This document shows positions 8 through 27,214 of a stretch of 64,000 nucleotides of DNA, piece after piece. The DNA comes from Giardia intestinalis. Lineage: Eukaryota. The notes under the pieces were generated by a model that had not been told where the DNA came from, searched no databases, and was given only the letters and a program-made list of their open reading frames with translations. Where the stretch lies: the NCBI GenBank assembly GCA_000002435.2, contig CM018793.1. One strand, written 5' to 3'. The translations under genes were made by a program, and so were the position numbers. Position 1 is the stretch's first letter, and every line of letters begins with the position of its first letter.

Positions 8-607
8 TCAGGTAAAGCGTATCTGGCAGGTTTCCATCGCCCTGGCCCTGCAGTAGGGGCATTTGGCGTCTACACGCATTAGCAGCTCCGCGCAGGAGCT
101 GCAGACGCACAGATGCCCGCAGGGGACGAAGGCGTGCGTGCTCTGCTTATCTAAGCAGACGCAGCACTCCCCGTCGGGCAGCTGCACCCTCTTGACGGCT
201 TTGGGGCGGCGGCGGCGTAGGGCGGCTTGCTGTCTCCTGATTATCGTTTGAGCCTTGGCTAAATCGAAACCAAGGCTTCTCGCTGCCCCTTCCGCCCTAT
301 CAAGCTGCTCGTAGAGCTCAGATAGGGCGGTCCCCGCCGTTGTGTATTTGGCCAGGCGCTGCTCTAAAGAGCACTTCTCTTTCCTGGCCTGCGCGCGCTC
401 TGCCCAAAGCTTTTCGCGGAGCCTCTTCACTTTGAGGCCCCGACGCTTCGCCTGGCTGCTCGCCATTGCGAGCAGCTCTTCGGCCGATCGGAGGAGGTCC
501 AGCTCGTCCACCGTAGTGGAATCGAGCTGGAAATCCTCGTCCGGCGTTTGTGGGAAGCCCACAAAGCCGGGGAAGCCGATCATGCAGTCAAAAGGCGGAG
601 TAGTCAT
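8..607 (-). CDS. Coiled-coil protein with C-terminal RING-HC finger (E3 ubiquitin-ligase-like).
   Basis: C-terminus 'CCVCLDKQSTHAFVPCGHLCVCSSCAELLMRVDAKCPYCRA' fits the C3HC4 RING pattern (LRSAM1/IAP-like tail). AT-rich sequence is immediately upstream of the ATG at 607. AGTGAAT overlaps the stop at the window edge. Confidence 0.6.
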   Translation of the reverse strand: MTTPPFDCMIGFPGFVGFPQTPDEDFQLDSTTVDELDLLRSAEELLAMASSQAKRRGLKVKRLREKLWAERAQARKEKCSLEQRLAKYTTAGTALSELYEQLDRAEGAARSLGFDLAKAQTIIRRQQAALRRRRPKAVKRVQLPDGECCVCLDKQSTHAFVPCGHLCVCSSCAELLMRVDAKCPYCRARAMETCQIRFT

Positions 608-702
608 CTGAACGGGACTTTTTCTCTATTTGCAATTTCAATTTAAAATGCTTCTCCGACGTTTATTATCCCTATACTCGTCAATATAGTGTAAATAAGA
701 AA

Positions 703-1191: not shown

Positions 1192-1201
1192 ATTGCACCG
1201 T

Positions 1202-1675: not shown

Positions 1676-1775
1676 CGCCCTTTTTCTTTCCCGTCCGCAG
1701 AAGCCGATTTGAAGTGGTTTGCAACACATATGTTGCTTGGCCGTTCTGCAACACATATGCTGCCGCGAATAAATA

Positions 1776-4205
1776 ATGACGCGGCGCATCCAGTGCGGAG
1801 GCTCCAGCCTCGAGATCGACCCGCTGACCGGCGAGCTCTCCTTCGAGGACTTCCTGAACACGGCAGAGCCGCCCGAGCAGGACCCGATGCCCGTCCCGAA
1901 GATCGACGTCGGAGGATCGCTGGAGATACTTAACAGCCCGATTGTCGAGGCTATCTTCGGCGACGTCCTTGATAAGCTAGATCTTTTCAAGAAAGATGTC
2001 GACGCGTTCATTGCGATGCTCAAGCAGAAGACGAAGAACGCGATCAATTGGGGGTTAGCGTTAGTCGGCGTGACGACTGTCTCGGGCCTCATGGTCGTCA
2101 TGGTGAGAGAGATCACCATGGCCATCAAGCGCTGGCAGCGAACGAGAGAGTATCAGGACAGTCAGCAGCCAGAAGCCCAGCCGAAGATGATCTCCAAGGA
2201 GAACATGGAGAAGAAGGACGAGATCAGCGAGATTAGCGGCGAAGATGTGGAACCGCCGAGTCTCGGGGAGTACGAGGAGCAGGTGTATGACGAGAACGGC
2301 AACGCCATGTTGAATCCTGACGGCTCGCCGTTGACAAAGACAGTCGTTATCCCCCTCGATCGGGACATCTCCGACCAGTACGACCCAATTCCCGAACCCG
2401 ATGACATCTCAGAAGAGGAAGAGGAGATAGAAGAGGACGAAGTGGAAGAGGAGCCGCCCATCAAGATAACTGATGAGCTGATCAGCGATATCTTCTGGGA
2501 GTTCGACAAGCAGCCCATCCTCAACGAAGAGAACTTCGAGTTCCTCTACGACAGCGGCGTTTACATCATTCACATCCCCCACGTATATATGAAGCGTACA
2601 TGCAAGTTGGGCGGCGACTATGCGGCCTATCCCTGCAAGATGATCGAAAGCATCATCGGACCTGCCTTATGGGACAGATACGGCCATACATTCAAACTGC
2701 GCTTTCCAAACTGCTCACATCAAGTATCTGGTCCCATGGGCACTGAAATCTGTTGTAAGTGTCATATGAATGATTCAGTTCATTGGAGGATACGCGTAAT
2801 ACCGGACGATCAGCCTATATGGTATAACAACGACTGCACGTGCGGCGCTAATTGCAGTTGTCGTTGCCATACCAAGACTCCAGAGAGCGTCTTCACCGTA
2901 ACATACAATTGCGTTTTTTGGTGTGTTCCCTGTGCCACAAGATGTATCTATACCCAGTACGAATCTGACTGTTGGACTCATTACAATTTTTCCACGGATC
3001 GGGGCTTTAGATCAGAAAGTGTCGCCGATAGTAACGGTTTTAGTTCTGCATATATAATACCCGCAGGTAAAAAAATCATACGTTATGAGAGCGAAAACAA
3101 GAACTACCCATATAACTCGCGCGAGTGCTGTGACTTCTGCAAGGTGATGAAGAATTACTTTTACGAAACCGAGGGCTACAAGCTGCACCGCACCAACACA
3201 GAGGTCTACATCTTCTTCTCCCGCGGCGAGAACTCGACAATCTTCGAGAAATGCAACGACCTCTTCAATGGCTATGTGTCCCAGAAGATCCACGACCTTC
3301 TTTCAGACTGGGACGCTGGCAACAATAAGATCATGAATCGACTCAGCATCGACTGTAAGTGCGATGTGAAGCGGCCGCGCTGCACGGACGTCTTCCGAGG
3401 CCTGGGAGAGGTCCATGCTGATACCGTTGGTTTCCTAAAAGGCCATGCCCAGAAGGTCAAATGGATATACCTCCCCGACTACGATTCAAATCTCGGCTTG
3501 CCTTGGTGGTATGACGACCCGCACGACTACCAATCGATCTCGAAGGTCTGCGCATTCGAGGGCTTCCTCGAGCGCAACATCCCCGAGCACGTCATCCGCT
3601 TCTACTCTTACCGCAGACTCACAGACAAGAAGTGGTTCGGGAACCTCTACAAGCAGATCTGCGATGCGATACTCTTGGATTACCCAGACATGCCTGCGGG
3701 CATTGGGGCTGCTGCGCAGAAGTGGAAGGACTTCAACGCATGGAAAGGCATTGATAAGATGCTCAGCGACGTCGTTCCGGTTAAACAGATATATCCCGAA
3801 CAGGTTTATCCTGAGACGCGGCTCTTCACTAGCAAGCCGGCCAACTGGAACCAGCTGAAGCAGCGCGGCGCGAGTTGGACCGGCGAAGTAGAGCCAGAGC
3901 TCGCGTCCTTCAAGCGCTACCTCGACCTCCTCAACAAGTACTACCCGGGCTGGTGGGAGTTCCGGGAGACGCAGGAGCTCGGCTGGTGGGACAATTTCTG
4001 GACCCAGATACCCGACCTCAGGGACCTTGAGCGGACCTCCATCTTCTACTACGAGGACCTCACCATTGACGAGACCCACTATGAGATATACGGCGAACCT
4101 CCTTGGTGGCGCAGTTTCTGGGGGCCGACGATACGAGACAAGGCGCCCGACCCGGAGAGGCCGCGCACATACGAGGAAACAGTTGAAGTGGCAAGTCGAT
4201 ATTAG
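1776..4205 (+). CDS. Hypothetical 809-aa protein with one predicted TM helix (aa about 90-115), an acidic tract and a Cys/Trp-rich C-terminal domain.
   Basis: Start 'aataaataATG'. Stop sits inside AGTGAAT. Hydrophobic 'WGLALVGVTTVSGLMVVMV', acidic 'ISEEEEEIEEDEVEEE', and Cys clusters 'CTCGANCSCRCH' and 'CVFWCVPCATRC'. Composition is mosaic: AT-richer 2560-3130. Confidence 0.6.
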   Translation: MTRRIQCGGSSLEIDPLTGELSFEDFLNTAEPPEQDPMPVPKIDVGGSLEILNSPIVEAIFGDVLDKLDLFKKDVDAFIAMLKQKTKNAINWGLALVGVTTVSGLMVVMVREITMAIKRWQRTREYQDSQQPEAQPKMISKENMEKKDEISEISGEDVEPPSLGEYEEQVYDENGNAMLNPDGSPLTKTVVIPLDRDISDQYDPIPEPDDISEEEEEIEEDEVEEEPPIKITDELISDIFWEFDKQPILNEENFEFLYDSGVYIIHIPHVYMKRTCKLGGDYAAYPCKMIESIIGPALWDRYGHTFKLRFPNCSHQVSGPMGTEICCKCHMNDSVHWRIRVIPDDQPIWYNNDCTCGANCSCRCHTKTPESVFTVTYNCVFWCVPCATRCIYTQYESDCWTHYNFSTDRGFRSESVADSNGFSSAYIIPAGKKIIRYESENKNYPYNSRECCDFCKVMKNYFYETEGYKLHRTNTEVYIFFSRGENSTIFEKCNDLFNGYVSQKIHDLLSDWDAGNNKIMNRLSIDCKCDVKRPRCTDVFRGLGEVHADTVGFLKGHAQKVKWIYLPDYDSNLGLPWWYDDPHDYQSISKVCAFEGFLERNIPEHVIRFYSYRRLTDKKWFGNLYKQICDAILLDYPDMPAGIGAAAQKWKDFNAWKGIDKMLSDVVPVKQIYPEQVYPETRLFTSKPANWNQLKQRGASWTGEVEPELASFKRYLDLLNKYYPGWWEFRETQELGWWDNFWTQIPDLRDLERTSIFYYEDLTIDETHYEIYGEPPWWRSFWGPTIRDKAPDPERPRTYEETVEVASRY

Positions 4206-4213
4206 TGAATTTA

Positions 4214-7090
4214 CTAATAACTGATGTTTATAGCCGGGTTCTTTGCCCAGTACCAGATCTTCACCCGGTTACCTGAGCCAAGGGATCTCGAATTCGACCA
4301 TGTTAATCGTAGGTTAATGTACGAATCGCTAGTATAGTCCGACCACGAGACTATGATTGTGTCATATGTACTAACGCGACAATCATACGCCTGGATCGAG
4401 ACAATGTCGTCATTGGATCTGCTCTGCATGTCGCTCGGAAAGTCCGCGAGATTCAGTCGCATGAACCCGTTGCCGTCGGTCGTCTGACTCGGCACAAAGC
4501 TCTTCAGCAGACACGGCGTCTTGAGGGCGTTGCATATCCGCTCTGAGTAGCTGCACAGCGTCTCACAGTCAGTAATCCGGCTCAGCTGATTAGAGAGCTG
4601 AGAGGTGTTCTGAGCGATAGAAGCCAGAGCACCCGTGATCTTACCAGCTTGCTGACTGACGTTGTTCGAGATGACCTGCACCTGGTTGTAGAGCTGGTTA
4701 TAACAACTAATGTGCGAGTTCAGAGACGATTGGACACCGCTAATGCGATTCGTGTTCCCTAAGACAGAGTCCCAAATGCCGCGCTCATTCGACTCAAGCG
4801 CATTGATGCGAGTCTCCAGAGCAGGCACATTTCCAACATTGCCATCAAGACGAGTAAGGCTCTCTCGAATCTCGCTGATGCTCTGGTCGACTGCTGTCAT
4901 GTGGCGGTCATGTGCATCTAAGGCGTCCTGCGTAGAGTCTCTCAAGCTCTCTAGTCGACCGTTTATCTCTCTCGCTGAATTGTTAACTGCATCGATAGTA
5001 GTCGCGAACTCTGTCGTTGTCCTCTCTAACGAACCTATCTTCACCTCAGATGCTTCCACTGTCCTGCTCATCCGAGACAGCGATGAAGAGAAGGCTGCAT
5101 TGTCTGTCTCAAAGACGCCTACCTTTTCAGCGAGCCTTCGGATGATCTCGTCCTGTGCAGCAAGGCGTTCTTCAAAAGCGCTTGCCTTTGCGCGCTCCTC
5201 TTCTAACTGTCTCTCAAGAGAGTCGATACGCGCTGCCGTTAATTGAGCGCCCACCTTTGCCTCGACCTTCTGCTGGTCGATGAGCTCTCTGAGATAGTTG
5301 TACGCGCCCTCGAGGTCTCTCTTGATCGTCATAGCATCGATCAGACCTCCCTCGAAGTCGGGAACTGAGATGTCGTTCCGCTCAAAGAACTGTGCGACAA
5401 TGGTCATCAGAATCTCCATGCGGTTCCGGAACTCCATGAGACTGTCCTGGTTACCCTCGAGCACGCTCACGCGGTCCTTCGTTTCATCTAACTGAACGCG
5501 GTCATCGTCAGTGTGACTCGTCAAGTCCCGAATACGCTCTTCAGCTCGCTTTACTTCCAAATGGGTCAAGGTCATATCATCGTTTATGTGTGAGAACTCA
5601 TCCCAAATGAACTGGAAGCGTTTATAAAGATCATCAGTCAGAAACTTGTATATCTTGCCGAACTTATAGTCATGCTGGTCGAGGCGGTACTTCGCTTCCA
5701 CTGCATATGTAAGGGCTACCGCAGCGACGACGCCAAGACACGCGTCTATCACATATCCGGTAATCAAGTTAATCAGATTCAGCTTCCGGAAAAGACCGCC
5801 CCCTGCGGCGATAATAGTATCAAACTCGCCGAGCTTATCCTTCATCAGATCTTCCTTCGTGAACGTCTTCTTCTTGATGAGATCGATCTGGCCCTCGGCG
5901 CGCTTGATGCGAGCCTCTAGAGTCTTCCGCTGCTTCTCGAGACGGTTGATCTTTGAATCGGCTTTCATTGCGTGCTTAGCAAGATAACGCGTTTGATGTG
6001 AGATGCGTCCCTTGCTAAGCTTCTTGAGACTCTTAATGGCTGTAACGTTACCGCCGATCTTGTAGTACTTTCCGAGGTGCTTGCGAAGACCATTGTCCTC
6101 GTCGCCGTCCTCATCGAAGCCCTGAAGCTGTCGATAGAGCCACATTGTCTGCTGGTTGAGCGAGGCGGCCATGAAGTCTGCACGAGACACGCGACCATCG
6201 GGAGAGAGCTTCTGATTGCTGCGACCAGCAAGCGACCCGCCGACCATCTGATAGATATACTGGATCTGCTCGATGACCGGTTGGCTCTTCAAATCGTCTT
6301 CGCTAATAGCGCCCGTCACGCCCTTGATGGAGATATCAGCATCTCTTGCAGCTCGCAGCCCAAACGTCTCAGGCTTCTTTATCTTACGTGGCTTCTTCGG
6401 CTCCTTTGGCTTCCTCTCCTTCTTGAGCTTCTTCTTCTTATCTGTAAGCGGCAGAAGGTCCTCCCGAAAAGCATAGTTGCCCCTTACCATCCACGTGACA
6501 GCAAGGATCTTCTGAACAATCGTCAGGTCGCGCAAATAGTCGAGCTTGTTCGGCGCATTCATATAGTCCTCCGGCTGGAAGTTGTTGTTGAAGCCGACCA
6601 TTGGGACCGACTTGACCTTCGGCTTCGAGAGAGTCTGCCCGGTTAGAGACATCGTATAGAGATCCGCAGGCACAGTCTTGAAGCCCAGTATCTCCTCCAT
6701 GAACTTCACTAGAAACGCTAGACACGGACCCTTCACCGGAGACTCTCCGTCGAAGGCATTGCCGTTCCAGTTCTTGATTTCATAGTTCTCATGATTACAA
6801 TAGTACTTGATGCACTTCTTTCGCTGAGCGGGGTCAAGAAGCTGCACGGCGCAGTGTATTGTCTTCCCGCCAAAGTACCCCGATATGCAGTGAGTCTTGC
6901 TGAGATTCAGGTTAGACCCAAACAGAGCTTTGCGTTCGTCAGGCACTAAGGCACACTGCATCACGTAGTCTTTGATGAGGTTATAATGATACGATGAGAG
7001 TGCGCTGACCTTATCTGCGAACGACTGCATCGACTCTGTCGTCATGAAGACGCCGTCGAGCTGCTCCCTGCGGATGATGAGGTTGTTCAT
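4214..7090 (-). CDS. Hypothetical 958-aa protein with a central TM-like segment, a long heptad / coiled-coil stalk and a beta-rich C-terminal domain of about 100 aa.
   Basis: Start is preceded (minus strand) by 'ggggaaaataaataATG'. Shares a palindromic AGTGAATTTACT 3' signal with the convergent 809-aa gene. Ser/Leu heptads span aa about 640-860. No family recognised. Confidence 0.6.
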   Translation of the reverse strand: MNNLIIRREQLDGVFMTTESMQSFADKVSALSSYHYNLIKDYVMQCALVPDERKALFGSNLNLSKTHCISGYFGGKTIHCAVQLLDPAQRKKCIKYYCNHENYEIKNWNGNAFDGESPVKGPCLAFLVKFMEEILGFKTVPADLYTMSLTGQTLSKPKVKSVPMVGFNNNFQPEDYMNAPNKLDYLRDLTIVQKILAVTWMVRGNYAFREDLLPLTDKKKKLKKERKPKEPKKPRKIKKPETFGLRAARDADISIKGVTGAISEDDLKSQPVIEQIQYIYQMVGGSLAGRSNQKLSPDGRVSRADFMAASLNQQTMWLYRQLQGFDEDGDEDNGLRKHLGKYYKIGGNVTAIKSLKKLSKGRISHQTRYLAKHAMKADSKINRLEKQRKTLEARIKRAEGQIDLIKKKTFTKEDLMKDKLGEFDTIIAAGGGLFRKLNLINLITGYVIDACLGVVAAVALTYAVEAKYRLDQHDYKFGKIYKFLTDDLYKRFQFIWDEFSHINDDMTLTHLEVKRAEERIRDLTSHTDDDRVQLDETKDRVSVLEGNQDSLMEFRNRMEILMTIVAQFFERNDISVPDFEGGLIDAMTIKRDLEGAYNYLRELIDQQKVEAKVGAQLTAARIDSLERQLEEERAKASAFEERLAAQDEIIRRLAEKVGVFETDNAAFSSSLSRMSRTVEASEVKIGSLERTTTEFATTIDAVNNSAREINGRLESLRDSTQDALDAHDRHMTAVDQSISEIRESLTRLDGNVGNVPALETRINALESNERGIWDSVLGNTNRISGVQSSLNSHISCYNQLYNQVQVISNNVSQQAGKITGALASIAQNTSQLSNQLSRITDCETLCSYSERICNALKTPCLLKSFVPSQTTDGNGFMRLNLADFPSDMQSRSNDDIVSIQAYDCRVSTYDTIIVSWSDYTSDSYINLRLTWSNSRSLGSGNRVKIWYWAKNPAINISY

Positions 7091-7104
7091 TATTTATTTT
7101 CCCC

Positions 7105-7159
7105 ACTCACACCAACCATTTGAAAGTGGAATCTGTTCTGAGAAAATAAAATGACGTAA
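7105..7159 (+). promoter_or_regulatory. Cassette-specific promoter module ahead of polB-A: 'ccaaccatttgaaagtggaatctgttctgagaaaataaaATGacgtaaATG'.
   Basis: The same module (aaaccatt..gaattc..ggaaaataaaATG) recurs at 11825-11867, 18318-18365, 20705-20746 and, in minus orientation, at 13680-13745 and 21099-21175. It contains a 2-codon uORF (ATG ACG TAA) abutting the polB ATG. Confidence 0.45.
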
Positions 7160-10100
7160 ATGGCAACCACTAGGGAACTCCTGACCATGCATCCCCAGCA
7201 GATGTCCGAGGACCAGCTCGCCCAGCTCAAGACGTCGCTCGAGACGCTCAACTACACCCAGCTCCGACAATACGTGCTCGGCCGCGTCAAGCCCCTCATC
7301 GAGAACGTCCGCAAGCACATCCAGGAGGACCCCGTCGGCTCGGTAGATCAAGTCCTCGACTTCCAGGACGGCTTCTGGTCCAAGGACCTGATCCAGCGCG
7401 TCCGCTGGAACCTCGCCCAGTTCAGGGTAAACGAGAAGAACCCCCGCAGAGTGCCGACCAGCAGAGCGAAGGAGGCGCTGGAGCTGAACTACATGACCGA
7501 CTACTCCTTCCGGCGCATCGTCTACCCGATCGTCGCAGACCTCGCCAAGGCTCTTTATCTCCGCGCAGAGGAAGCTAACCGCCGCAACACCGACGCTTCG
7601 GTGCGCTATGTCCCGCTTCTTGTCATGTTCAACCAGCAGAACACGTTCGGCTATCCGCCCCGCGTCGCCTTCCTCGTGACGCCTGCCGTCATCACGTTCC
7701 TCCGCGGATGGAAGGTCTTCGCCGACGGAGACGACGCCCACCAGCACTACCTCAACGCGGTCACGAGGGACGCGGCGCAGATCCACGGCGTCCAGTCCGC
7801 AGAGCCTGGCGAGATGCTCTACTGCTTCAACTGGGACCCCATTTTCGCCGGCACAGAGAGCGACCCCGAGAACCCCCGCAACGCCATGTTCTCCTTCGGG
7901 ACGATGTACGAGCCCGTCTTCATCTTCCAGATCCAGATCATCCGCACCAGAGAGGGCCAGCGGAAGCTCATCCACCGCAGGGGAGGTATGGCGCCCTTCA
8001 CGAACGACTCGTTCTTCGACCTCACGCGCTACCAGATCGAGAAGACAGGCGAGGGCTTCAAGAACAGCAAGGACACGTGTTTCCTCTACGCCCTCAAGCA
8101 GAGCGGCGTGCTGAGCGACGACGAGATACGGGCCGCCGCCTTCCACATCAACCAGGCCTCTGTCACCTTCGCGATGATCGACGCCATCGGCAAGCAGCTC
8201 TTCGTCTGCTTCCACATGCACATGGCAGACAGGGTCGTCCTCAAGGGCGCGCAGAAGAACCGCAAGGTTCCGCCGGGCGTCGCGATCCGGAACATCCACC
8301 TGGGCTTCGACTTCAACCACTACTACATCTTCGACGAGAAGCTCCCCTACAGCAAGACGTACGTGAACAACGCAGCCGTCATGATGGAGCACCACACATA
8401 CCCCGCGAACACGAACCTGCGCGAGGTCAACGTCAGAGACACCTTCCACCCGCAGACCAGGGAGCCGACGAAGAAGGTCGTCTTCGGCTACCACCGCGAC
8501 GACGACCCCCATACATGCTCGAGTCGGGACCTCATCCTCTCGCTCCACAAGCAGGGCCTCCTCAAGCCCATCCGCTCCGACAGCCTGCTGGCCATCAAGG
8601 AGTCCTTCATCCGCGAAGAGCACTACGAGGAGGACGCGCTCAACTACTGCGAGGACCAGCTGAAGGAGATCACGCCGAAGAAGAAGACCCAGTCGCCCAA
8701 GGACGTCTGGTTCGCAGACTTCGAGACGACGACCGACGGGGACCAGCACCACCCGTTCCTCCTCTGCTTCCACGGGATCAACAACGTCACGGGGACGTAC
8801 TGGGCGAAGGACTACAACAGCATCGGGGACATGGTCCGAGCGGCCTTCAACCGCCTCGCGATGCTCAACCGGCCCCAGCTGGTGTACTTCCACAACCTCA
8901 ACTACGACGGGGCCTTCGTCCTCCCGTACTTCGACGTCAAGAAGGACAGCATCGTCACCCTCGGGGCGAGCAAGATCATCGCGTTCACGATCCATGTCCG
9001 GCTGAGCGACGACCGGAAGAACAAGCCGATCCCGATCCACTTCCGGGACTCCTACGCCCTGATCACGGCTCCCCTCAGCAAGTTCGGCAAGATGTTCAAC
9101 CTCAACGTGCACAAGGAGGTCCTCCCGTACTCGTTCTACACCCAGGACAACGTCAAGAAGCTGTGCCAGGGCTTCAAGCCGACGCTCGAGGAGTACCTCT
9201 CGTACGAGATCGAGAGCAGGAGGGAGGAGCTCGAGCAGCTGCTCCGTACGCTGCCGGAGATGCTGGTAATAGACAGGGTCGACGCCTTCAAGTACGCCCA
9301 CTACTACTGCGCAAGAGACTGCCACGTGCTCAAGGACGGGGTGATGGGCTTCAGACGCCAGCTCCTCGAGGTCACGGGCATCGACGCCTTCACATCCATG
9401 ACGCTCCCGAGCATTGCCTACAACTTCCTCATCAACGAGAAGTGCTTCGAGGGCTGCTTCAACCTCAACACGGCGCCGCTCCTCTTCGTACGCCAGTGCG
9501 TGACGGGCGGGCGCTGCATGCTCCGGTGCAACGAGAAGCAGTACGTCGAGGGCGAGGTCATGGACTTCGACGCCGTCTCGCTGTATCCGTCTGCCATGGC
9601 GCGCCTCCACACCCTCATGGGCCACCCGAAGATCGTCGACCCCGAGAAGCACGACCTCGGCTGGCTCCTCCGGCAGGACGGCTGCTTCCTCGAGATCGAC
9701 ATCGAGGTCGTCCCGAAGCAGCTCGACTTCCCCCTCATCAACAGGCAGACGGAGAAGGGGAGGCACTTCTCGAACGAGCCGGGCCCGATGTTCGCCGACA
9801 ACATCACGATCGAGGACATCATCGAGTACCACAAGGTCCCGATGAACCGGATCAGGGTCCTCCGGGGCTACTACTACGACGAGGGCAAGAACACGAACAT
9901 CCAGGCCGTCATCCGGAAGATCTTCGAAGCGCGGCTCAAGTTCAAGGCGGAGGGCAACCCGCTCGAGAGCATCTACAAGCTCATCATGAACAGCTGCTAC
10001 GGGAAGAGCATCCTCAAGCCCGTCTACAAGCGGATGAACACGGTCGACCACGCGGGCCTTGAGAGAGAGCTCCTCGACAACTCGGCCGATGTCCTCTGCT

Positions 10101-18621: not shown

Positions 18622-19272
18622 TTACTTCGAGATCTCCTCGAGGAAGCGAGCGAACGTGCCCGGCTCGGTCGAGGCGTTGAGGAAGCACTGGATGCCCTCT
18701 GCCCACTGCAGCGCCTGCTCGTCGGTGAGGCACGGACTTGTCGCCGTGTACGAGCGCTTGAACTTCGGGAGCCGCGACAGCCTCACTAACTCCTCCCCGG
18801 TCTCCTCTAAGAGGTAGAAGGCAGAGCGCACTCCATCTGATGCTCGCCTGCAGAAGGCGGTGTAGTGGGGCGCGCGCACGAACTCGTCCTCGGGCCTCTT
18901 GACGAAGCGGAAGATGACCCCGAGCTGGTTGAGCCACTGGCAGAACCAGGCCGTGACTCGCTCGTAGTCCTCCGTGCCCTCGGCGCAGTCGGCAGTAATG
19001 CGGCCCAGTAGTCTTCCCACCTGGCCACAGAAGCTCTTGAAGGGCGGGCCGGCGCGGGCGGATGTCTGCTGTGCGGGCTCGGGGTGCGAAGTCTGCTGAA
19101 CGGGGTCGGGGTCGGCGTGCGCTCGAGCCTTGAGGGGGCTTCGCTTGCGAGAGGATCCTCGAGGAGGGAGGGCGATGTCTTGCGTGAAGAGGTCCTCGGT
19201 GTAATGCTCAGGAATGATGCCATCTGCCATGCGTCCTTTTATTTTCTTGACGCTCCTATCATAAAGACGCAA
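18622..19272 (-). CDS. Hypothetical 216-aa Cys-containing protein, copy B.
   Basis: Start 'gaaaataaaaggacgcATG'. Shares the AGTAAATGTTTACT 3' palindrome with the small basic gene. Confidence 0.55.
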   Translation of the reverse strand: MRLYDRSVKKIKGRMADGIIPEHYTEDLFTQDIALPPRGSSRKRSPLKARAHADPDPVQQTSHPEPAQQTSARAGPPFKSFCGQVGRLLGRITADCAEGTEDYERVTAWFCQWLNQLGVIFRFVKRPEDEFVRAPHYTAFCRRASDGVRSAFYLLEETGEELVRLSRLPKFKRSYTATSPCLTDEQALQWAEGIQCFLNASTEPGTFARFLEEISK

Positions 19273-19343
19273 ACCATTTCAAATCCACTTCTACCAAACA
19301 ATATTAAATTCACTTCCTTCCGGCGTCTGCAGAAAAAAAAAAA

Positions 19344-19787
19344 ATGCTGGACCTCCGCAAGCTTAACAAGGAGGACTTCGAGCAGGCCATAGCCACCTTC
19401 ATCGAGCGTGCTCTTGACCTCGAACGGCCGGAAGATCTGAACAAAGACGAGCCGATTTATAACAGAAGCTATCTCCAGATCGACCCCGTCACGCACGGAG
19501 AGTATAACCTCACCCCGGCCGTTCTCTGGTCGCTGATAGTTATGACACTGACCTCCTATGGCCTTACAATGTTTACTGAGGACGACTGTCTTTGCGTGCA
19601 ATATGGCAAAATATACAAGTTTCCCATCGAGCCGGCAGACGAAGACGTTCTCAGAGAGATACACTATGCCATACACGTTGAAGCGACAGAAGACTTGGAA
19701 CTCTTCCCCCAGACCGAAGAGGAGATCGTGGCAGCGTTCAAACAGATACTTGGCGGACAGATAGAATTCCACATCCGACCCAAGTAA
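19344..19787 (+). CDS. Hypothetical acidic 147-aa protein. Occupies the slot that the ankyrin gene holds in unit A.
   Basis: Start 'cagaaaaaaaaaaaATG'. Stop in AGTAAAC. The antisense ORF 19239..19772 is judged spurious. Confidence 0.5.
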   Translation: MLDLRKLNKEDFEQAIATFIERALDLERPEDLNKDEPIYNRSYLQIDPVTHGEYNLTPAVLWSLIVMTLTSYGLTMFTEDDCLCVQYGKIYKFPIEPADEDVLREIHYAIHVEATEDLELFPQTEEEIVAAFKQILGGQIEFHIRPK

Positions 19788-19789
19788 AC

Positions 19790-20230
19790 CTGCGCTCCTC
19801 GGTCATGCGAATCAATTCCCGAATCAGAATCAAATCAAAATCAATTCGTCACAATTAATTGCACGAGGGGTCTCACAGGGCTCAGAAAAAAAAAATTACG
19901 CTGACCTGCCGGGCTGTCTGTATGTCGCACCTCGGTGTCGTGCGGGCCCGACAGGCTGGCTGGCTGGCCGGCAGCTGAACTGAGCCTCGAACGTACCACA
20001 CCCACAACGCGTCTCCTCCCGGCGTGCACAGTTCACGCTGGGCGGTTCCGGGGGGAGGCGCGTTTTTTTTAGAAAAATTACAGGTTTTTTATTCTATCAA
20101 AAATCATAATGTTTGGACGGGAGATTGCAGCAGGGAGAACAAAATCGCGGCGGTCGTTTTCGTTTTTTTGGGTAAGGCCCCCGGCCGGCCCAAAAAAACG
20201 AAAGCGGGCGCCTCGAGGATATATACTACT
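19790..20230. repeat. Conserved inter-unit spacer, copy B (includes hairpin 20155..20206 and the 'atatatactact' junction).
   Basis: Colinear with 13700..14157. Confidence 0.7.
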
Positions 20231-20339
20231 GGCGTGCTCCCTGTAGAGGTGATCGCGCTCTCTACGTTGATCGAGCACGATATTGTACAACTTCTTCACT
20301 TTGAGGTTGCGGCGCCTTATTTGGGTTCTAGCTCGTTCA

Positions 20340-20460
20340 AAGAGCTCCCCGTCGGTTCTAACAGGCCCCAGCTCGTCCACTTCCACAGCCTCAACTACGA
20401 CGGGGCTTTCATCCTTCGACATCAAGGAGGACTCCATCGTCACCGCACGAGGCACCCCGC
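20340..20460 (+). pseudogene. Third, highly degraded polB fragment (ExoII region 'NRPQLVHFHSLNYDGAFIL').
   Basis: Nucleotide similarity to 8866-8960 of polB-A with indels. Embedded in the non-genic ORF 20024..20743. Confidence 0.4.
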
Positions 20461-20864
20461 AGGTCCGGGAGGGCCCGAGCATCGGCCAATCCACGACAGC
20501 ACCAACGATGGCGAAGCAGACCCACAACCATCCCACACTCTGGGCCGGACTCCCGCCCCGCGGGCCCTACTCTGCCCCGCCGCCGCTGGCCCTGCGCCCT
20601 GGGTCGGAGCGGCGGCCCGCGCCCCCGCAAGCCTCTCGGCCGCCGGAGATGCCGCGGCGCCACGCGCTGGGCCGCCCCGGGACCCGGCGCCGTCTTCCAA
20701 AAAACCCAAACCATTGCAAATCGGAATCTCTCCCGGAAAATAAAATGACGCCGGCGCTGCCGGTATGTCGCACCGAGGTGTCGTGCGGGCGCCTGGAAGG
20801 CCTTTCCTCAAGCCCCTCTGCGGAGGGCAGGGCAAGAGCCTGCGCGGCCTGCCCTGGGCGCTGT

Positions 20865-21098
20865 TTACTTCGGCTGGCTCCCGTGGGAGAGCACAACCGA
20901 GACCTTGCGGCAAGCCCTCCCCTGGCCGAGCGTGAACCTGACAGTGAGCTGGTCCAGGCGCATCACAGCGCGGAACGCGGCTCGAACGGTGCGGGGGAGG
21001 GCTCGAACGGCTCGAGCGATGCAGAGGAGCCTCGAGAAGATCCCGGGCGGCCTCGGGGGGTGCTCCAGAGGCGGCGTCGGAATGGTGGCATCAGACAT
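20865..21098 (-). CDS. Candidate small gene (77 aa, Arg/Ala-rich).
   Basis: Minus-strand start 'ggaaataaaaagcagcgaccATG' with an upstream 'cgaattgattttgattc' module. Stop embedded in AGTAAAC. Overlaps a plus-strand ORF (20747..21182) that also carries the cassette promoter. Confidence 0.35.
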   Translation of the reverse strand: MSDATIPTPPLEHPPRPPGIFSRLLCIARAVRALPRTVRAAFRAVMRLDQLTVRFTLGQGRACRKVSVVLSHGSQPK

Positions 21099-24000
21099 GG
21101 TCGCTGCTTTTTATTTCCGGACACCAGGTCAACCCGAGGCCGAATCAAAATCAATTCGGAATCTGTCCGCCAAATAGTTTAGACGAGAAGTCAGACAGGC
21201 CCGAAAAGACGCGACCCGCCGCCGGTGTGCTTCGCCGCGGCGCCGCGCGAGTGGATGCACCAGTCGACCCGAGCGGCGAGAACCAGGCGGGGCAGACGGC
21301 TGGCGTGGGGTAGGAGGGCCCAGGCGCAGATGTGGGTGGCCGCCTCCCCCTAACGCTCTGCACTGTGGCTCCACCGCGCCCGAGGCAAGCAGATGGGCAG
21401 GTGGGCGCACCGACGCGCGGCGCCTGGGCCAAGACCAGGAGGTGAGGCACTAATCCTGCTAGAATAGCTATACGCCGAACCCAACGGAACGCTCGACTCC
21501 ACCTCCTTGGAAAGCACCCGACCACCCAAAAGTGGAAGAGGCCGCCGCTAAGATAGGCACTATGTTGCCCGCAGGCAGCGGCCTCAGCTACAGCACACAG
21601 AACCAAACACAACGCACGCCTTAGCCGCTGGCTCCCCCACCGGGCCATACCTGACGGCGCCCTGGCTAGCTTTGAGGTGCAAGGAAACAACTAGCTTCAC
21701 TCCTGTACACCCTCCCCAGACCAGCCGCCTATCAATCCGCTCGGCTCGCCACAGACGCTCAGTCTGTGTCGGCGCAGCCGTTGAGCTCCGCATTCACAAG
21801 AGTGGATACCAAGCACCACGCAGGCACTAAGGAGGATGGCTCCGTGCAACTGGACCTTGAGCGCAGGACGGCACAGCGTCATCCAGACGGGCTCATAGAG
21901 GTCGACGTCGTCCTGATGACCCGTTTTTGCGGGAGGAAGCCCGGCTACGTGAGATAGACATAGGCCATCCTCACACACGGACACAGTGCTTACCCTCTCA
22001 CCTTGTGGTGCTCCATGTGGCTTCCCATCTATTCATGAAGCCCGCCATGATAACACCTAGTGCACCAACGTCGGTCTTGTGCGCCCACCTGCGGCGCCCT
22101 CTATGGATCCGAGACGCTCTGGTCCCTCGCATTGTGTCGCTCAAACTGCTGGCTCCTCGAGTCTGTGTGCCCCCAGGGGCTCGGTCGAACCAAGAACAAC
22201 GAATCTCAGGCTTGCCCATGAGCTGGAACACGTCCAGGAGCCAGGCACCGTGCAAGCGGCTACCGCTCCCCAGGCGTCAGCTCCAGACTGTGGGGAGGTT
22301 CGCCCGGACACCCGCTGGCCCAGGGGTGGCGGCCCGCCAGGCTCCCAGCCCCCGGATCAATGTCCAAGGGCGGCCGCACAGCAGAAGACCGCCCCGGTGC
22401 CACGGCCGGCGACAGACAACTATTTACAGTGACGCTGCGGCTGCAGAGGCGGGGCCTCGGAGCGCCGGCCTGCCGACACGCTCCGCCGGCTCAGAGAGAG
22501 AGCCCTGGACCCGGCGCGGCTCCGCGAATAGGAGATGCAGCCGTCCTGCTTGGCGCTCTGCAGCAGGGCTATGTTCTCCTCGAAGGACATGGGCGGCGCA
22601 ACGGCCCCGGCCCTTATCACGACCGGCGGGGCATCCCTTAGCCTTGGGCCAACCGGGCGCCGCCCATGAGCCTCGCTGTCAGGTGATGTAGCGTCTTCAG
22701 GCCCCAACGACGCTCGTCACTGTCTCATCGTGCTTTGTGACTTAACTCGTGTGGCCCTTGGCTTGTCCTTGCCACAGAATGCACTCTTGAAGTCGGATGA
22801 GCGGAAACTGATGGTCGACTGTAGCTCGCTGCAACGTTTGTGTGTCGACCACCTACCCAGCCACGCTCAGAGATCAATGACCCGGCCAACTCTTCTTGGA
22901 CAACAAAAAGGCCACCGGCAGACTCGAAATCCTTGTGGACGACACAGGGAAGGGATCCTCGCTGGCATCGATCTTGTCGGGGTCGTGGAGGTAGGTAAGG
23001 ATGATGACGATCTGCTCCATGATGGAGAGCACTGTATCGGTAGGGTTACCGGTTCTTGCACAATCGGCAACCACATCTTGAGGCACCGATCCCAGCGGTC
23101 CATAACGATGACATGGAGTGGGCGTCTCTGAGCACCCGGTAGTGCCTAATGGCATCTAGGTGTCAGCGTCTGGAAATGGTGGCCAGCGCGACCCAGTGGC
23201 CTCCGTGAGCTTCCCACTCTGAGCCTTGGGTAGCTACCTATCACATGGACAGTACCAAAGCTGCCCACATCAAGCACCCCTCCTCGCATCGATGCAGCTC
23301 GTCAAGAGCGAACACGGAATATCGGGTGCGCCGTCCCCAGCCATGACGGTGTCAACGGCGCTGTGCAGAGCACGCTCGGGGGCAGGGGAGTGGCCACCCC
23401 TTTTCCCGGTTGCTGGCTGGCTGGCGAAGTATACGAGGCGCACCCGCTTGTCAGGCAGCTGTCTGAGATGAGGGCATTCCCGGCCCGGAGAGGCCCCTGC
23501 TTAGAACAGGTCACCAATTGTGTAGTAGAAGGAGCACGATCCTTGACATCCTTCCGTGCCAGACTGAAGGAACAAGCTCTGATGCGCTCCTTGCATTTTC
23601 TATTATCATAAACAGTGCTCGATAAGGTAGACGGTATCCCTAAGGAGACACACCGATGCGCTGTGCGAGTCGTCAACCACTTTCCGATCAATCTTATATG
23701 GGTGCGTCTCAGTATGGCCCATATGTTCGCAACATCACAACCGCCGCAGTTGCTATTTACAAAAAGTGGGCCATCAGTGAATGAAGCCAACAAACCCTGG
23801 ACTGTGAGGGAGACGCCTTTTCACGCCTGTCTCATGCCAGTACTTTGGGCCCTCGAATACTTATTGCCGCAAACCAAGCCAATCTATCGGCGTGTCAGGC
23901 GTATCGTTGCGACCATAAGGCTCAGTTTCTTTCATAATTAGCCCTGCTACCATCCACATCGCTGCGAGTGTCCCGCAATAGACTTGAGTAGGAAGCGCTT

Positions 24001-24297
24001 TAAACCCTTGACAAAAGCCCGCAGGCGGCACTAAACGCGCAGTTGATAAGCAAAATGGCCTTAGCCCCAGTAGTCTGTACAGCGCTGGTTGCGCCACGTA
24101 GCAGGCTTTCGGAGCACCCGTCTTCCCCTTCTTCCACAAGGGGTCCCGCTGTTGGTCATGGTGTTCTGAAATTGGACTGTTTTAGGCACATCCAGAATAC
24201 TCACACCCACCCTACTAGCGCACCTAATGCCTGTGCCGGATGAAATAGTGAGCGCGATCCATTTAACCTCAGTTTTCTGCGTTCAAAGTAAAAATTA

Positions 24298-25077
24298 ATG
24301 TGGAGCTGGGAGAGATCGCACTTTCACCACCATCATCACTACTGTCACCACCATAGTGTCCCTGAGTATGGGGTGCTTGGGGGTTTTGGCGGGCTCATCG
24401 GAGGACTCATAGGGGGCGCCATCGGGGCTAATCTGGGTCGCAAAAAAGAGAGAAAAGAGAAAGAAGTTATAGTCCAGCAGCAGCAGATCTCGCCCCCGCA
24501 GCAGAGTAAAGACAAGGAGGTTCACATCCACATTAACCAGTACACCCCGCCAAATAACGCTGCTCCCTCTCCAGCGGCAAACAATGCTAGCAAGCAAGCT
24601 GGGAGCAGTGCAGAGCCGTCTACACAACACATAGAGGCAGGGCTAGCGTCACTGGAGAAGCTTATGTATCTCGGCAACATAGAGGCGGCTAGGCTGCAAA
24701 TGCCGGCATTCAAGAAGTGGTACTTCTCCGAGCGCGAGAAGTTCACCGACCTCAATCTGCTGGGGGTGTACGACACGCGGCTACTGACTGTAGACATGTG
24801 GCTGGTTAACGATGCCGCAAGGGTTGTTAAGGCGCCACAAGGCCCCTTTACGGAGAACGATGCCAAGAAGGTTATGGAGCGCCTGGTAACCAAGGATGGC
24901 CAGCAACAGTTTGTGCAACTGTTCCAACCCGCCCCCATAATGGAGGGTGATAAGCACGAAGACAAAAGCTCAGAGGAACCACTCTTCCTGCGAAGCCTGA
25001 GGAACGCCAATCTCGCCCCCCGCAGCTCTGTTTCAGCCGACCCCATGCAGGCCTACCCGGGCCTAAGAATGAAGTGA
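24298..25077 (+). CDS. Hypothetical protein with His-rich N-terminus ('HFHHHHHYCHHH') and a Gly-rich 'GGFGGLIGGLIGGAIG' tract.
   Basis: Start 'gtaaaaattaATG'. 259 aa. Confidence 0.5.
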   Translation: MWSWERSHFHHHHHYCHHHSVPEYGVLGGFGGLIGGLIGGAIGANLGRKKERKEKEVIVQQQQISPPQQSKDKEVHIHINQYTPPNNAAPSPAANNASKQAGSSAEPSTQHIEAGLASLEKLMYLGNIEAARLQMPAFKKWYFSEREKFTDLNLLGVYDTRLLTVDMWLVNDAARVVKAPQGPFTENDAKKVMERLVTKDGQQQFVQLFQPAPIMEGDKHEDKSSEEPLFLRSLRNANLAPRSSVSADPMQAYPGLRMK

Positions 25078-26000: not shown

Positions 26001-26070
26001 CGGGGTCGACGAGCGCAAGGAAAATAAAACGGGTAAAGGCACAATTCACTGAGCCTGACAAAAGCCTGTC

Positions 26071-26877: not shown

Positions 26878-27214
26878 TTTTTTCTGGCGCAAAAGCGGAC
26901 TATTAATAATTATGAAACAGAGGGCAGAAGGCGCGCATTTGGCCCTGACCATGCACCTGCAGCGTGGCCGGTAGTGCTAGGCGTCTCCTTGCCGTCGAAG
27001 GGTCTGGCTTAGGAATCCGCATCGGCACTCTGCCCGCGGCCAGCCTTTCAGAGCACCAAAATTAGTTTAAGGAACAATCGTCAGCGGAAATCCGTCCATC
27101 GAACAAGGAAAGATCAAGGGTGCATAGCCACTAGCACTACGGTGCAGGATGTTGTGGTAAATTTCCGATTTCACGTGTCTGGACAGGCAGCAGCTTCTGG
27201 GCTCCATCTAAAAA

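What the first reader, a model, noticed from the sequence alone, without database searches (positions are those of the whole stretch)
7100..21200. Tandemly reiterated, progressively 5'-truncated pPolB-dNK-basic-protein cassette: candidate endogenous self-replicating element
Unit A spans 7100-13700 and carries an intact 1198-aa pPolB, a convergent dNK, an 84-aa basic protein, a 198-aa protein and an ankyrin gene. Unit B (13700-19790) repeats the same four genes at 85-90% aa identity, but its polB starts at codon about 172 and is frameshifted, and its last gene is a different 147-aa ORF. A third polB scrap lies at 20340-20460. A conserved hairpin-bearing spacer separates the units. None of the Polinton hallmarks (integrase, packaging ATPase, protease, capsid genes) is present. 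The window also shows no terminal inverted repeats of the linear-plasmid kind. The closest analogy is a chromosomally captured and decaying protein-primed replicon or plasmid. A second reading is an unreported host gene family amplified by unequal crossing-over. Either way I am not aware of a pPolB locus described in a diplomonad-like genome.
Basis: partly seen in the sequence, partly recalled or inferred. Interest (0 to 1): 0.9.

Follow-up and report, generated by a model that had tools for sequence, protein, structure and literature searches.

The report
Integrated capsid-encoding DNA virus in Giardia
The polymerase-kinase cassette is the right-hand arm of a roughly 25-kb Polinton/Maverick-like DNA virus integrated in the Giardia intestinalis WB chromosome, followed by two older, increasingly decayed partial copies of that arm. 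It matters because no capsid-encoding DNA virus element of this human parasite turned up in the literature I could search.

Summary
The window is Giardia intestinalis WB. It holds an intact 1198-aa protein-primed polymerase (pPolB), then a divergent deoxynucleoside kinase (dNK), an 84-aa basic protein, a 198-aa protein and an ankyrin gene. A second unit follows whose polB lacks codons 1-172 and is frameshifted, and then an 85-bp polB scrap.

The interpretation needs enlarging. About 10 kb left of the window, on a contig 100% identical to it, lie four more element genes:
- an A32-type packaging ATPase
- a penton-like minor capsid protein
- a probable double-jelly-roll major capsid protein
- a weak rve-like integrase

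It is about 400 bp long, has a strong subterminal hairpin and ends in ...ATACTACT. Assemblage E isolate P15 carries an inverted copy on the capsid side. In isolate DH the terminus abuts host flank directly, and two independent contigs stop exactly there.

Units A and B are not a simple recent duplication. Their dNKs differ by 44% at nucleotide level against 11% for polB, and unit B groups with other lineages. The best reading is an endogenous polintovirus-like element with reiterated, truncated right arms from successive invasions or recombination.

I file it as a new member of a known kind, of moderately high interest.

The parts
8..607 (-). RING-finger protein (199 aa). Probably part of the element's left or central region.
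   Evidence: Pfam zf-C3HC4_3, E 2.9e-13. Homologues sit in the same neighbourhood in L008 and L013. The 27-kb virus-like contig L010 also carries one: 31% identity over 139 aa to the L013 copy, E 4e-16.
1776..4205 (+). 809-aa protein of unknown function. An element gene, hypervariable between isolates.
   Evidence: Syntenic in L001, L002, L008, L013, L014 and L018. Its N-terminal homologue is in the compact 20-kb contig L005. It is only 73-87% nt identical to L001, where the neighbouring DNA is 97-99%. dN/dS 0.22-0.31.
4214..7090 (-). 958-aa coiled-coil protein, divergently transcribed from polB. An element gene.
   Evidence: It is always adjacent to polB (L001, L002, L006, L008, L013, L014, L018). 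A homologue is in L005. Its C-terminal domain weakly matches a 382-aa protein of the 17.4-kb virus-like contig L011, E 6e-9; coiled-coil composition may inflate this. dN/dS 0.16-0.19.
7160..10756 (+). Intact protein-primed family-B DNA polymerase (polB-A, 1198 aa).
   Evidence: PF03175, E 5e-37. All motifs are present: ExoI 518, ExoII 578, ExoIII 716, A 804, B 940, C 1035, KxY 1093. It has 2966 relatives, 1402 of them at E<1e-30. dN/dS 0.15-0.34 against other G. intestinalis lineages. It equals XP_001707488.1.
10763..11815 (-). Deoxynucleoside-kinase-like gene, A type (ATG probably at 11794).
   Evidence: PF01712, E 1.4e-15. It is 44% nt divergent from the B type. Its best PDB sequence match is Drosophila dNK, E 3e-4. 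The gene numbers published for the host dNKs are different ones (PMC11662666).
11868..12122 (+). 84-aa protein with an Arg/Lys-rich C-terminal tail.
   Evidence: Sequence. It is the most conserved small gene: dN/dS about 0.06 against L001 and L008, 65% aa identity to L006.
12127..12723 (-). 198-aa protein of unknown function.
   Evidence: Homologues in L001, L002, L008, L013, L014 and L018. No Pfam hit.
12840..13679 (-). Ankyrin-repeat gene (279 aa), the last gene of unit A.
   Evidence: Pfam Ank_2, E 4e-61. Present in L001 (87% aa) and P15 L018 (shorter, 168 aa). It has an internal 93-bp periodicity.
13690..14160 (+). Terminal repeat, copy S1: the right terminus of the complete element. Hairpin at 14085-14135; the end ...ATATATACTACT falls at 14160.
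   Evidence: It aligns with S2, L001, L002 and the P15 penton-side copy. Hairpin dG -28.3, z -7.6. The L001 contig ends exactly at ACTACT.
14160..17229 (+). polB-B pseudogene. It lacks codons 1-172 and is frameshifted at 15280-15463.
   Evidence: At nucleotide level it groups with L008, not with polB-A.
17232..18377 (-). dNK, B type, with an open reading frame (ATG probably at 18296).
   Evidence: PF01712, E 1.3e-10. It groups with the L008 and L002 dNKs: 16-26% nt divergence to them against 44% to dNK-A.
18366..18617 (+). Copy B of the 84-aa basic protein, open.
   Evidence: 87% aa identity to copy A, dN/dS 0.17. Sequence.
18622..19272 (-). Copy B of the 198-aa protein, open (internal ATG giving MADGIIPEH...).
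   Evidence: 69% aa identity to copy A, dN/dS 0.23. N-terminus.
19344..19787 (+). 147-aa ORF unique to unit B. Whether it codes is uncertain.
   Evidence: No homologue in any fetched locus. No Pfam hit. A 177-aa ORF overlaps it on the other strand.
19828..20234 (+). Terminal repeat, copy S2. Hairpin at 20155-20205; ACTACT at 20225-20230.
   Evidence: 72% identical to S1. Hairpin dG -30.5, z -6.7. Alignment.
20360..20444 (+). Third polB remnant (85 bp, the ExoII region).
   Evidence: About 80% identical to 8867-8959 and to the polB of L001, L002, L008 and L018.
20612..21089 (.). Start of the flank shared with isolate DH. This is the right boundary of the variable, element-occupied region.
   Evidence: L014 16772-17247 matches window 20616-21089 at 97.7%. 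In DH the ACTACT terminus abuts this flank directly.

Best explanation
The region 7100-20600 is the right arm of an endogenous Polinton/Maverick-like (polintovirus or adintovirus-like) DNA virus integrated in the Giardia intestinalis WB chromosome. Two older, increasingly degraded partial right arms follow it.

**The complete element.** It is about 25 kb, and the window covers only its right half. The gene order, from left to right in window orientation, is:
- left terminal repeat
- penton protein (reverse strand)
- A32-type packaging ATPase
- 129-aa and 181-aa proteins
- probable double-jelly-roll capsid protein (872 aa)
- rve-like protein (342 aa)
- 773-aa and 209-aa proteins
- RING protein
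- 162-aa and 809-aa proteins
- 958-aa coiled-coil protein
- pPolB, dNK, p84, p198, ankyrin
- right terminal repeat (S1)

**Shown.**
- gene content
- terminal repeats with a conserved subterminal hairpin and an ...ACTACT end
- purifying selection on the genes
- the different ancestry of units A and B

**Inferred.**
- The element replicates, or replicated, as a linear genome by protein priming from the 5'-AGTAGT... ends. The trinucleotide repeat would allow the sliding-back or jumping-back known from adenovirus (5'-CATCATCAAT) and phi29.
- The N-terminal roughly 500 aa of the polymerase may serve as the primer protein.
- The dNK feeds dNTP supply in a host that has no ribonucleotide reductase.
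- The array arose when the right terminus of a newer genome was joined into the polB gene of the resident copy. The S1 junction lies within TGACG. This happened more than once, so the oldest copy (the scrap) lies furthest right and the newest, intact copy lies on the left.
For: **Identity of the polymerase.**
- PF03175.
- All seven exonuclease and polymerase motifs are present.
- Thousands of 1000-1200-aa pPolB relatives share 33-44% identity over residues ~250-1183.

**Virus hallmarks at the same locus.**
- L015 is 100% identical to window 1-7536 and extends it to the left.
- That extension carries an ATPase that passes Pfam's Pox_A32 threshold (25.4 bits against 22.8). The orthologues score 26.9-31.1.
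- rve is the top or only Pfam hit of all three 336-342-aa orthologues.

**Termini.**
- Nine copies in five lineages end in TACTACT or TATTACT and diverge immediately afterwards.
- Each has a strong hairpin 11-19 nt from the end. There are four unrelated stem sequences.
- In DH the terminus abuts host flank that is 97.7% identical to WB.
- Contigs L005 and L001 stop exactly at ACTACT.
- In P15 the same roughly 400-bp repeat sits inverted beyond the penton gene.

**Conserved gene set.** The 20-kb contig L005 holds homologues of 11 of the genes in a different order.

**Foreign composition.** GC is 0.58-0.59 in the element against 0.52 in the rest of the window.

**Units A and B have different ancestry.**
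- polB-B and dNK-B group with L008 and L002, while unit A groups with L001 and P15.
- The dNKs differ by 44% nt against 11% for polB.
- The gene next to the terminal repeat differs between the units.

**Incongruence with host phylogeny.** The DH (assemblage AII) polBs are 91-94% identical to those of assemblage B and only 78% identical to WB-A. WB-A is 98% identical to the assemblage E copy.
Against: - The capsid-protein call rests on a low-confidence model (pLDDT 47, 8 sequences).
- The rve hit is below Pfam's threshold (about 20 bits against 32.6). The third catalytic position reads N rather than E. A PDB sequence search with the profile found nothing.
- No maturation protease was found.
- No target-site duplication could be examined.
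- The left terminal repeat was seen in P15, not in WB itself, because the L015 contig stops short of it.
- The P15 left and right repeats are only 72-80% identical.
- No episomal or virion form is shown. Neither the WB polB nor the two capsid protein families has relatives in IMG/VR, and the penton family has none in the JGI metagenomes.
- The locus is syntenic and the ORFs are intact in every G. intestinalis lineage examined. That also fits an old, domesticated insertion.
- The successive-invasion order is inferred from the decay gradient and the trees, not observed.
Confidence: 0.72

Rival explanations
1. In-situ tandem duplication of a resident element's right arm, followed by gene conversion or allelic replacement. 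The subterminal hairpin stalls replication, and the fork switches template by microhomology back into polB at codon 173.
For: - The unit period is regular, about 6.1-6.5 kb.
- The S1 junction lies immediately after a 20-bp palindrome, within a short shared TGACG.
- A single breakpoint explains the 5'-truncated polB.
Against: - Divergence between the units is very uneven: polB 11%, p84 13.5%, spacer 28%, dNK 44%.
- Unit B groups with other lineages for both polB and dNK.
- The gene next to the terminal repeat differs, ankyrin in A and a 147-aa ORF in B.
- P15 and L002 have single units.
Confidence: 0.2
2. Domesticated host genes. The polymerase, kinase and small proteins were captured long ago from a virus and now serve Giardia, for example in repair, telomere or episome maintenance, or deoxynucleoside salvage. 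The capsid genes nearby are relics.
For: - polB ORFs are intact and syntenic in all G. intestinalis-complex lineages found.
- dN/dS is 0.15-0.34 for polB and 0.06 for p84.
- polB is 98% identical between assemblages A and E.
- Giardia depends wholly on deoxynucleoside kinases (PMC11662666).
Against: - The capsid, ATPase and other element genes are also intact and conserved.
- The terminal repeats and hairpins are conserved.
- Copy number and arrangement differ between closely related isolates: WB tandem, DH inverted pair, P15 single.
- The polB tree conflicts with assemblage relationships.
Confidence: 0.15
3. One reading: a capsid-less linear-plasmid-like protein-primed replicon, or an amplified host gene family, with no virus connection.
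For: Within 7100-21200 there is indeed no capsid, ATPase, protease or integrase gene.
Against: - The same contiguous locus carries a packaging ATPase, a penton protein and a probable capsid protein.
- These genes travel with polB and dNK in DH, P15 and L005.
Confidence: 0.04
4. Assembly artefact: a collapsed or falsely expanded repeat.
For: The 2007 protein model for copy B (XP_001707491.1, 980 aa) is only about 91% identical to unit B of this window. One of the two assemblies is therefore imperfect here.
Against: - The copies differ by 11-44%.
- The independent metagenome contig L001 breaks exactly at the S1/polB-B junction, as expected for a real repeat.
- Unit B has its own closest relatives elsewhere.
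Confidence: 0.02

Closest known systems
Polintons/Mavericks (polintoviruses), including those of Trichomonas vaginalis and Entamoeba
   Same: - Size of 15-30 kb.
- A large (about 1200 aa) protein-primed PolB.
- An A32/FtsK-type packaging ATPase.
- A penton-like minor capsid protein and a probable DJR major capsid protein.
- A retroviral-type integrase candidate.
- Terminal inverted repeats of a few hundred bp.
- Termini that read 5'-AG...CT-3'.
- Chromosomal integration in multiple, partly decayed copies.
   Different: - No adenain/Ulp1-like maturation protease was found.
- The integrase is only a sub-threshold match, with D-D-N at the catalytic positions.
- The capsid proteins are undetectable by sequence.
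- It carries a dNK, a RING protein, an ankyrin protein and a long coiled-coil protein.
- It has a strong subterminal hairpin.
- Copies cluster at one locus instead of being dispersed.
- No target-site duplication could be checked.
Polinton-like viruses (PLVs) and adintoviruses
   Same: - Morphogenetic module of MCP, penton and ATPase.
- Some encode a pPolB.
- PLVs lack the protease.
- Structural matches of the penton model include Tetraselmis virus S1, MELD virus and adintovirus proteins.
   Different: - Most PLVs lack an integrase.
- Adintoviruses encode a protease and adenovirus-like accessory genes.
- No free genome of this element has been seen.
Adenovirus replication origin
   Same: A linear genome end with a direct trinucleotide repeat followed by an A/T-rich stretch. 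The element reads 5'-AGTAGTATAT... and adenovirus reads 5'-CATCATCAATAATATA... This arrangement supports jumping back after protein-primed initiation (established knowledge of adenovirus; not tested here).
   Different: - No separate terminal-protein gene was recognised.
- The hairpin next to the end has no adenovirus counterpart.
- The analogy is by sequence pattern only.
Linear pPolB plasmids of fungal and plant mitochondria and yeast cytoplasm
   Same: - A protein-primed PolB of the same Pfam family.
- Terminal inverted repeats.
- A possible terminal protein fused to the N-terminus of the polymerase.
   Different: Those plasmids have no capsid or packaging genes and usually encode an RNA polymerase. 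This element has capsid and packaging genes and no RNA polymerase.

Membership tests
Polinton/Maverick (polintovirus) | Protein-primed family-B DNA polymerase | tested here: met
   PF03175, E 5e-37. All exonuclease and polymerase motifs are present. Relatives are 1000-1200-aa pPolBs.
Polinton/Maverick (polintovirus) | Retroviral-type (rve) integrase | tested here: inconclusive
   rve is the top or only Pfam hit in three orthologues, but at 18.9-20.5 bits it is below the 32.6 cut-off. The catalytic positions read D15, D71, N107 with DD35E spacing. A PDB profile search found nothing. The gene lies outside the window (L015 11396-12424).
Polinton/Maverick (polintovirus) | FtsK/HerA-type (A32-like) packaging ATPase | tested here: met
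   Pox_A32 scores exceed the gathering score in WB-L015 (25.4), P15 (31.1), DH (27.8) and L005 (26.9), against 22.8. The gene lies outside the window.
Polinton/Maverick (polintovirus) | Single-jelly-roll penton (minor capsid) protein | tested here: met
Polinton/Maverick (polintovirus) | Double-jelly-roll major capsid protein | tested here: inconclusive
Polinton/Maverick (polintovirus) | Adenain/Ulp1-like maturation protease | tested here: not met
   No protease family hit in any element protein scanned with Pfam. Remote homology was not excluded.
Polinton/Maverick (polintovirus) | Terminal inverted repeats with 5'-AG...CT-3' ends | tested here: met
   The roughly 400-bp S repeat ends in ...ACTACT at the polB side (WB S1 and S2, P15 L018). 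It is inverted beyond the penton gene in P15 L017. The WB left copy was not retrievable.
Polinton/Maverick (polintovirus) | 6-bp target-site duplication | not tested
   Both junctions of one copy were never available together. The DH right junction is ACTACT|CCCGCG.
Capsid-less linear pPolB plasmids | pPolB plus TIRs, no virion genes, usually an RNA polymerase | tested here: not met
   Capsid and packaging genes are present in the same element. No RNA polymerase hit.
Host replicative family-B polymerases (alpha, delta, epsilon, zeta) | Match to the cellular PolB family rather than the organellar/viral family | tested here: not met
   The only Pfam hit is PF03175, DNA_pol_B_2.
Canonical non-TK1 deoxynucleoside kinases | dNK fold with P-loop | tested here: met
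   PF01712: 58 bits (A) and 41.9 bits (B), above the cut-off of 27. PDB similarity is weak, Drosophila dNK at E 3e-4. Enzyme activity was not tested.

The most novel reading that the evidence does not exclude
The element is a live, inducible endogenous DNA virus of Giardia. It excises or replicates as a linear, protein-primed genome of about 25 kb from its AGTAGT termini and builds icosahedral particles from the penton and DJR capsid proteins. It brings its own deoxynucleoside kinase because the host cannot make deoxynucleotides. It moves between Giardia assemblages, which would explain why the polymerase tree conflicts with the host tree. The unassigned 17-kb and 27-kb gut-metagenome genomes that carry the nearest polymerases would then be related viruses of diplomonads. 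One of their types already has an integrated relative in P15.
Probability: 0.25. Interest if true: 0.85.

Novelty: new member of a known kind. Interest (0 to 1): 0.62.

Why it matters
- **A gap in Giardia virology.** Giardia is a major human and veterinary parasite. To my knowledge and in the papers I could search, its known viruses are a dsRNA totivirus and, by inference from endogenous fragments, CRESS-DNA viruses (PMC7493932). I found no account of a capsid-encoding dsDNA virus element in Giardia (ten searches). The literature held only an annotated 'putative DNA polymerase' and one leaf in a published tree.
- **Possible uses.** Such an element would add a deep-branching metamonad host beyond Trichomonas to the Polinton world. 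It would offer a natural marker of gene flow between assemblages, and possibly a vector or an inducible system.
- **Viral metabolic adaptation.** The kinase gene in a host without ribonucleotide reductase is a neat case. It also means that WB has two more open dNK-like reading frames than the three kinases counted in the enzymology literature (PMC11662666).
- **Testable replication signal.** The conserved hairpin-plus-ACTACT terminus gives a concrete, testable origin or terminus signal.

Tried and rejected
**Searches that found nothing**
- IMG/VR searches with polB, the penton alignment and the capsid alignment found no relatives. The JGI metagenome scan with the penton alignment also found none.
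- Rfam on 13600-24300 gave only sub-threshold chance hits.
- PDB sequence searches found nothing for polB, the rve-like profile or the P15 second dNK-like protein.
- hhalign of the Giardia capsid and penton profiles against L011 proteins showed no similarity.
- PHROGs gave nothing useful on L005 proteins.
- BLAST of window 20.2-24.4 kb against all element loci found only the polB scrap and the DH flank.

**Ideas I dropped**
- I first read the much lower synonymous divergence of polB compared with its neighbours as recent transfer. The sliding comparison with L001 showed instead that the 809-aa and 958-aa genes are hypervariable against a 97-99% background.
- My two-frame conceptual translation of polB-B gave meaningless identities (last row). 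I ignored it in favour of the nucleotide tree.
- I considered Helitron-like and integron-like explanations, because the hairpin sites lie in direct orientation. I dropped them once the inverted copy, the capsid genes and the pPolB context were found.

**Blocked step**


Full report
**Origin of the window.** The 1198-aa ORF at 7160-10756 is identical to XP_001707488.1 / KAE8305704.1, 'putative DNA polymerase' of Giardia intestinalis WB (ATCC 50803), on a 4.02-Mb record. A neighbouring ORF is GL50803_0086680.

**Checking the observation.**
- ORF listing and Pfam confirm a DNA_pol_B_2 (PF03175) polymerase (E 5e-37), a convergent dNK (PF01712), an 84-aa ORF, a 198-aa ORF and an ankyrin gene in 7160-13679. 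A second PF03175 ORF and a second dNK lie downstream.
- Self-comparison gives four matches:
  - 7677-10763 to 14160-17236, 88.9%
  - 11044-11614 to 17558-18125, 67.6%
  - 11763-12741 to 18262-19249, 78%
  - spacer 13711-14164 to 19828-20234, 72%
- An 85-bp polB remnant lies at 20360-20444.
- polB-B starts at the equivalent of codon 173. It has eight 1-2-nt deletions at 15280-15463, so its motifs lie in three frames.
- The other unit-B genes are still open.
The dNKs are 50% identical and p198 is 69%.
- The two spacers each carry a 20-bp-stem hairpin (dG -28 and -30 kcal/mol, z about -7).

**The polymerase.** All exonuclease and polymerase motifs of protein-primed PolBs are present: DxE at 518, NxxYD at 578, Yx3D at 716, DxxSLYPS at 804, Kx3NSxYG at 940, YxDTDS at 1035 and KxY at 1093. 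An exhaustive HMMER search found 2966 relatives, 1402 of them below 1e-30. These are typically 1000-1200 aa and match residues ~250-1183 at 33-44% identity. This is the large Polinton-type pPolB, not a cellular polymerase.

**Relatives and synteny.** Close homologues (55-98% identity) exist only in Giardia genomes and in gut metagenomes.
- In every G. intestinalis-complex locus the order is ~800-aa gene, ~960-aa coiled-coil gene (reverse strand), polB, dNK (reverse strand), ~84-aa gene, ~200-aa gene (reverse strand).
- Nei-Gojobori estimates give dN/dS of 0.15-0.34 for polB, 0.06-0.16 for p84 and 0.16-0.31 for the two upstream genes. The genes are therefore under purifying selection.

**The wider element.** Four lines of evidence show that the cassette is one arm of a virus-like element.

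1. *A compact relative.* The 20-kb contig L005 (polB 55% identical) packs polB and dNK together with:
   - an ATPase that passes Pfam's Pox_A32 threshold (26.9 against 22.8 bits)
   - homologues of the window's 809-aa and 958-aa 'flanking' genes, in a different order
2. *Isolate DH.* The DH contig AHGT01000070.1 has two inverted copies, 90.9% identical to each other, of a 10.6-kb block running from the 809-aa homologue through the coiled-coil gene, polB, dNK and p83 to p198.
   - Next to it lie an A32-like ATPase and a divergently transcribed 491-aa gene.
   - The contig's end is 97.7% identical to window 20616-21089, so this is the same chromosomal locus.
3. *The sequence left of the window.* Contig L015 is 100% identical to window 1-7536 and continues about 10 kb further left. 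In window orientation that stretch reads: penton-like gene (reverse strand), A32 ATPase (25.4 bits), 129-aa, 181-aa, 872-aa, 342-aa and 773-aa genes, 209-aa gene (reverse strand), and then the RING gene at window 8-607.
4. *Structure predictions.*
   - The 336-342-aa protein has rve as its only or top Pfam hit in three orthologues. The scores (about 20 bits) are below threshold, and the residues at DD35E spacing read D-D-N.
   - No protease was found.

**The 'spacer' is the terminal repeat.** Aligning S1, S2, L001 and L002 shows a conserved block. It ends with a hairpin followed by GGATATATACTACT, and the sequences then diverge completely.
- The same layout recurs with quite different stem sequences in DH (twice), L005 and P15. 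The hairpins have dG -20 to -36 kcal/mol and z -3.9 to -10.3, and lie 11-19 nt from ...ACTACT.
- In DH the ACTACT end abuts the WB-like host flank directly.
- Contigs L005 and L001 end exactly at ACTACT.
- In P15 the roughly 400-bp S-type repeat also lies beyond the penton gene, pointing outward. It is therefore inverted relative to the polB-side copy. P15's polB-side copy ends at ACTACT as well.
- The element thus has terminal inverted repeats whose 5' ends read AGTAGTATAT.... From established knowledge, Polintons have 5'-AG...CT-3' termini, and adenovirus ends (CATCATCAAT...) use such a trinucleotide repeat for jumping back after protein priming. That these ends are a protein-primed origin is my inference.
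- From the inferred left repeat to S1 the complete WB element is about 25 kb.

**Units A and B.** Neighbour-joining trees place polB-B with L008 (8.9% nt divergence) and polB-A with L001 and P15. dNK-A is 44% divergent from the clade of dNK-B, L008 and L002.
- L008 and L002 align better with unit B than with unit A over polB, dNK and the small genes.
- The gene next to the repeat differs between the units (ankyrin in A, a 147-aa ORF in B), and the repeats themselves are only 72% alike.
- A plain recent duplication does not predict this.
- The decay gradient runs from an intact unit A, through a frameshifted polB in unit B, to an 85-bp scrap. Together with the fact that each unit ends in a complete terminus joined to an internal polB position of the next, this suggests successive arrivals. 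In each, the newcomer's right end was joined into the resident's polB, at S1 within the shared pentanucleotide TGACG.
- Template switching at the hairpin followed by gene conversion remains a serious rival.
- P15 shows a different arrangement: its terminus is joined to an inverted partial copy beginning at the 773-aa gene. DH shows an inverted pair. The locus is therefore a rearrangement hotspot in all isolates.

**Host phylogeny.** The polB of WB (assemblage AI) is 98% identical to that of P15 (assemblage E). The DH (AII) copies are 91-94% identical to assemblage B proteins and only 78% identical to WB-A. This means either transfer between assemblages or ancient paralogues that were lost differentially. 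I cannot separate the two.

**Function of the kinase.** Giardia lacks ribonucleotide reductase and lives on salvaged deoxynucleosides. The literature counts three kinases, with GL50803_4558 and GL50803_17451 as the non-TK1 enzymes (PMC11662666). The element's dNKs are divergent extra copies, with only a weak PDB match to Drosophila dNK. A virus-borne kinase that boosts dNTP supply in such a host is a reasonable inference, but it is untested.

**Literature.** Ten full-text searches found no description of a Giardia pPolB element. A Giardia pDNAP is listed in the legend of a published Polinton/PLV polymerase tree (PMC4642659). Papers outside the held library could not be checked.

**Verdict.** The object is an endogenous Polinton/Maverick-like virus with reiterated truncated right arms, which makes it a new member of a known kind in a medically important host.

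Noticed in passing
L017 14100-21300 (P15 contig ACVC01000209.1): Just beyond the left terminus of the P15 element lies a second, different virus-like gene set. It has a dNK-like 352-aa gene, a 418-aa protein 33% identical to the 491-aa protein of L011, and a 614-aa protein 30% identical to L011's 584-aa protein. This links the unassigned 17.4-kb metagenome genomes to Giardia.
   Followed up: partly
L010, L011, L012 and the clusters of P0042, P0044/P0205, P0045 and P0046: The nearest non-Giardia pPolBs (41-44% identity) sit on contigs of recurrent size in many samples: 17.1-18.5 kb (P0044/P0205 and P0046 clusters), about 26-29 kb (P0042) and up to 25.7 kb (P0045). L011 and L012 have polB next to one contig end, and L010-L012 each carry an A32-like ATPase. 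They look like discrete virus genomes. Their ends could not be fetched.
   Followed up: partly
window 1800-7160: The 809-aa and 958-aa genes are only 73-87% nt identical to contig L001. DNA on both sides (1200-1800 and polB) is 97-99% identical. dS is 0.7-1.2 for these genes against 0.07 for polB. They are hypervariable genes within a conserved element.
   Followed up: partly
L013 and L014 (DH contig AHGT01000070.1): The assemblage AII isolate carries two inverted copies, 90.9% identical, of the 10.6-kb polB block. Each is bounded by a second type of hairpin-plus-GATAGATACTACT site.
   Followed up: partly
window 14297-17226: The 2007 protein model of the second polymerase (XP_001707491.1, 980 aa, uninterrupted) is only about 91% identical to unit B of this window and 88% identical to unit A. 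The older assembly was probably chimeric here.
   Followed up: partly
window 13803-13843, 19910-19950, 20753-20793: A 41-nt GC-rich motif (CGGGCTGTCTGTATGTCGCAC...GCGGGCCCG) lies inside both terminal repeats. It occurs a third time in the flank shared with DH, and L002 also has it twice. It may be the remnant of an older terminus.
   Followed up: no
window 20445-24300: A GC-rich (0.59-0.63) stretch without convincing ORFs or Pfam hits and with no similarity to element genes. It lies between the last polB scrap and the first clear host genes, TBCC at 25107-26042 and an SF-assemblin/beta-giardin-like gene at 26071-26952.
   Followed up: partly
window 7094-10375 (-), 7708-10062 (+), 14156-15031 (-), 17226-18320 (+): Very long ORFs overlap polB and the dNKs on other frames or strands. 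They are most likely by-products of the GC-rich codon usage of the element, not genes.
   Followed up: no
window 10763-11815 and 17232-18377: Two open dNK-like reading frames exist in WB in addition to the three deoxynucleoside kinases counted in the enzymology literature (PMC11662666). Their activity is unknown.
   Followed up: no
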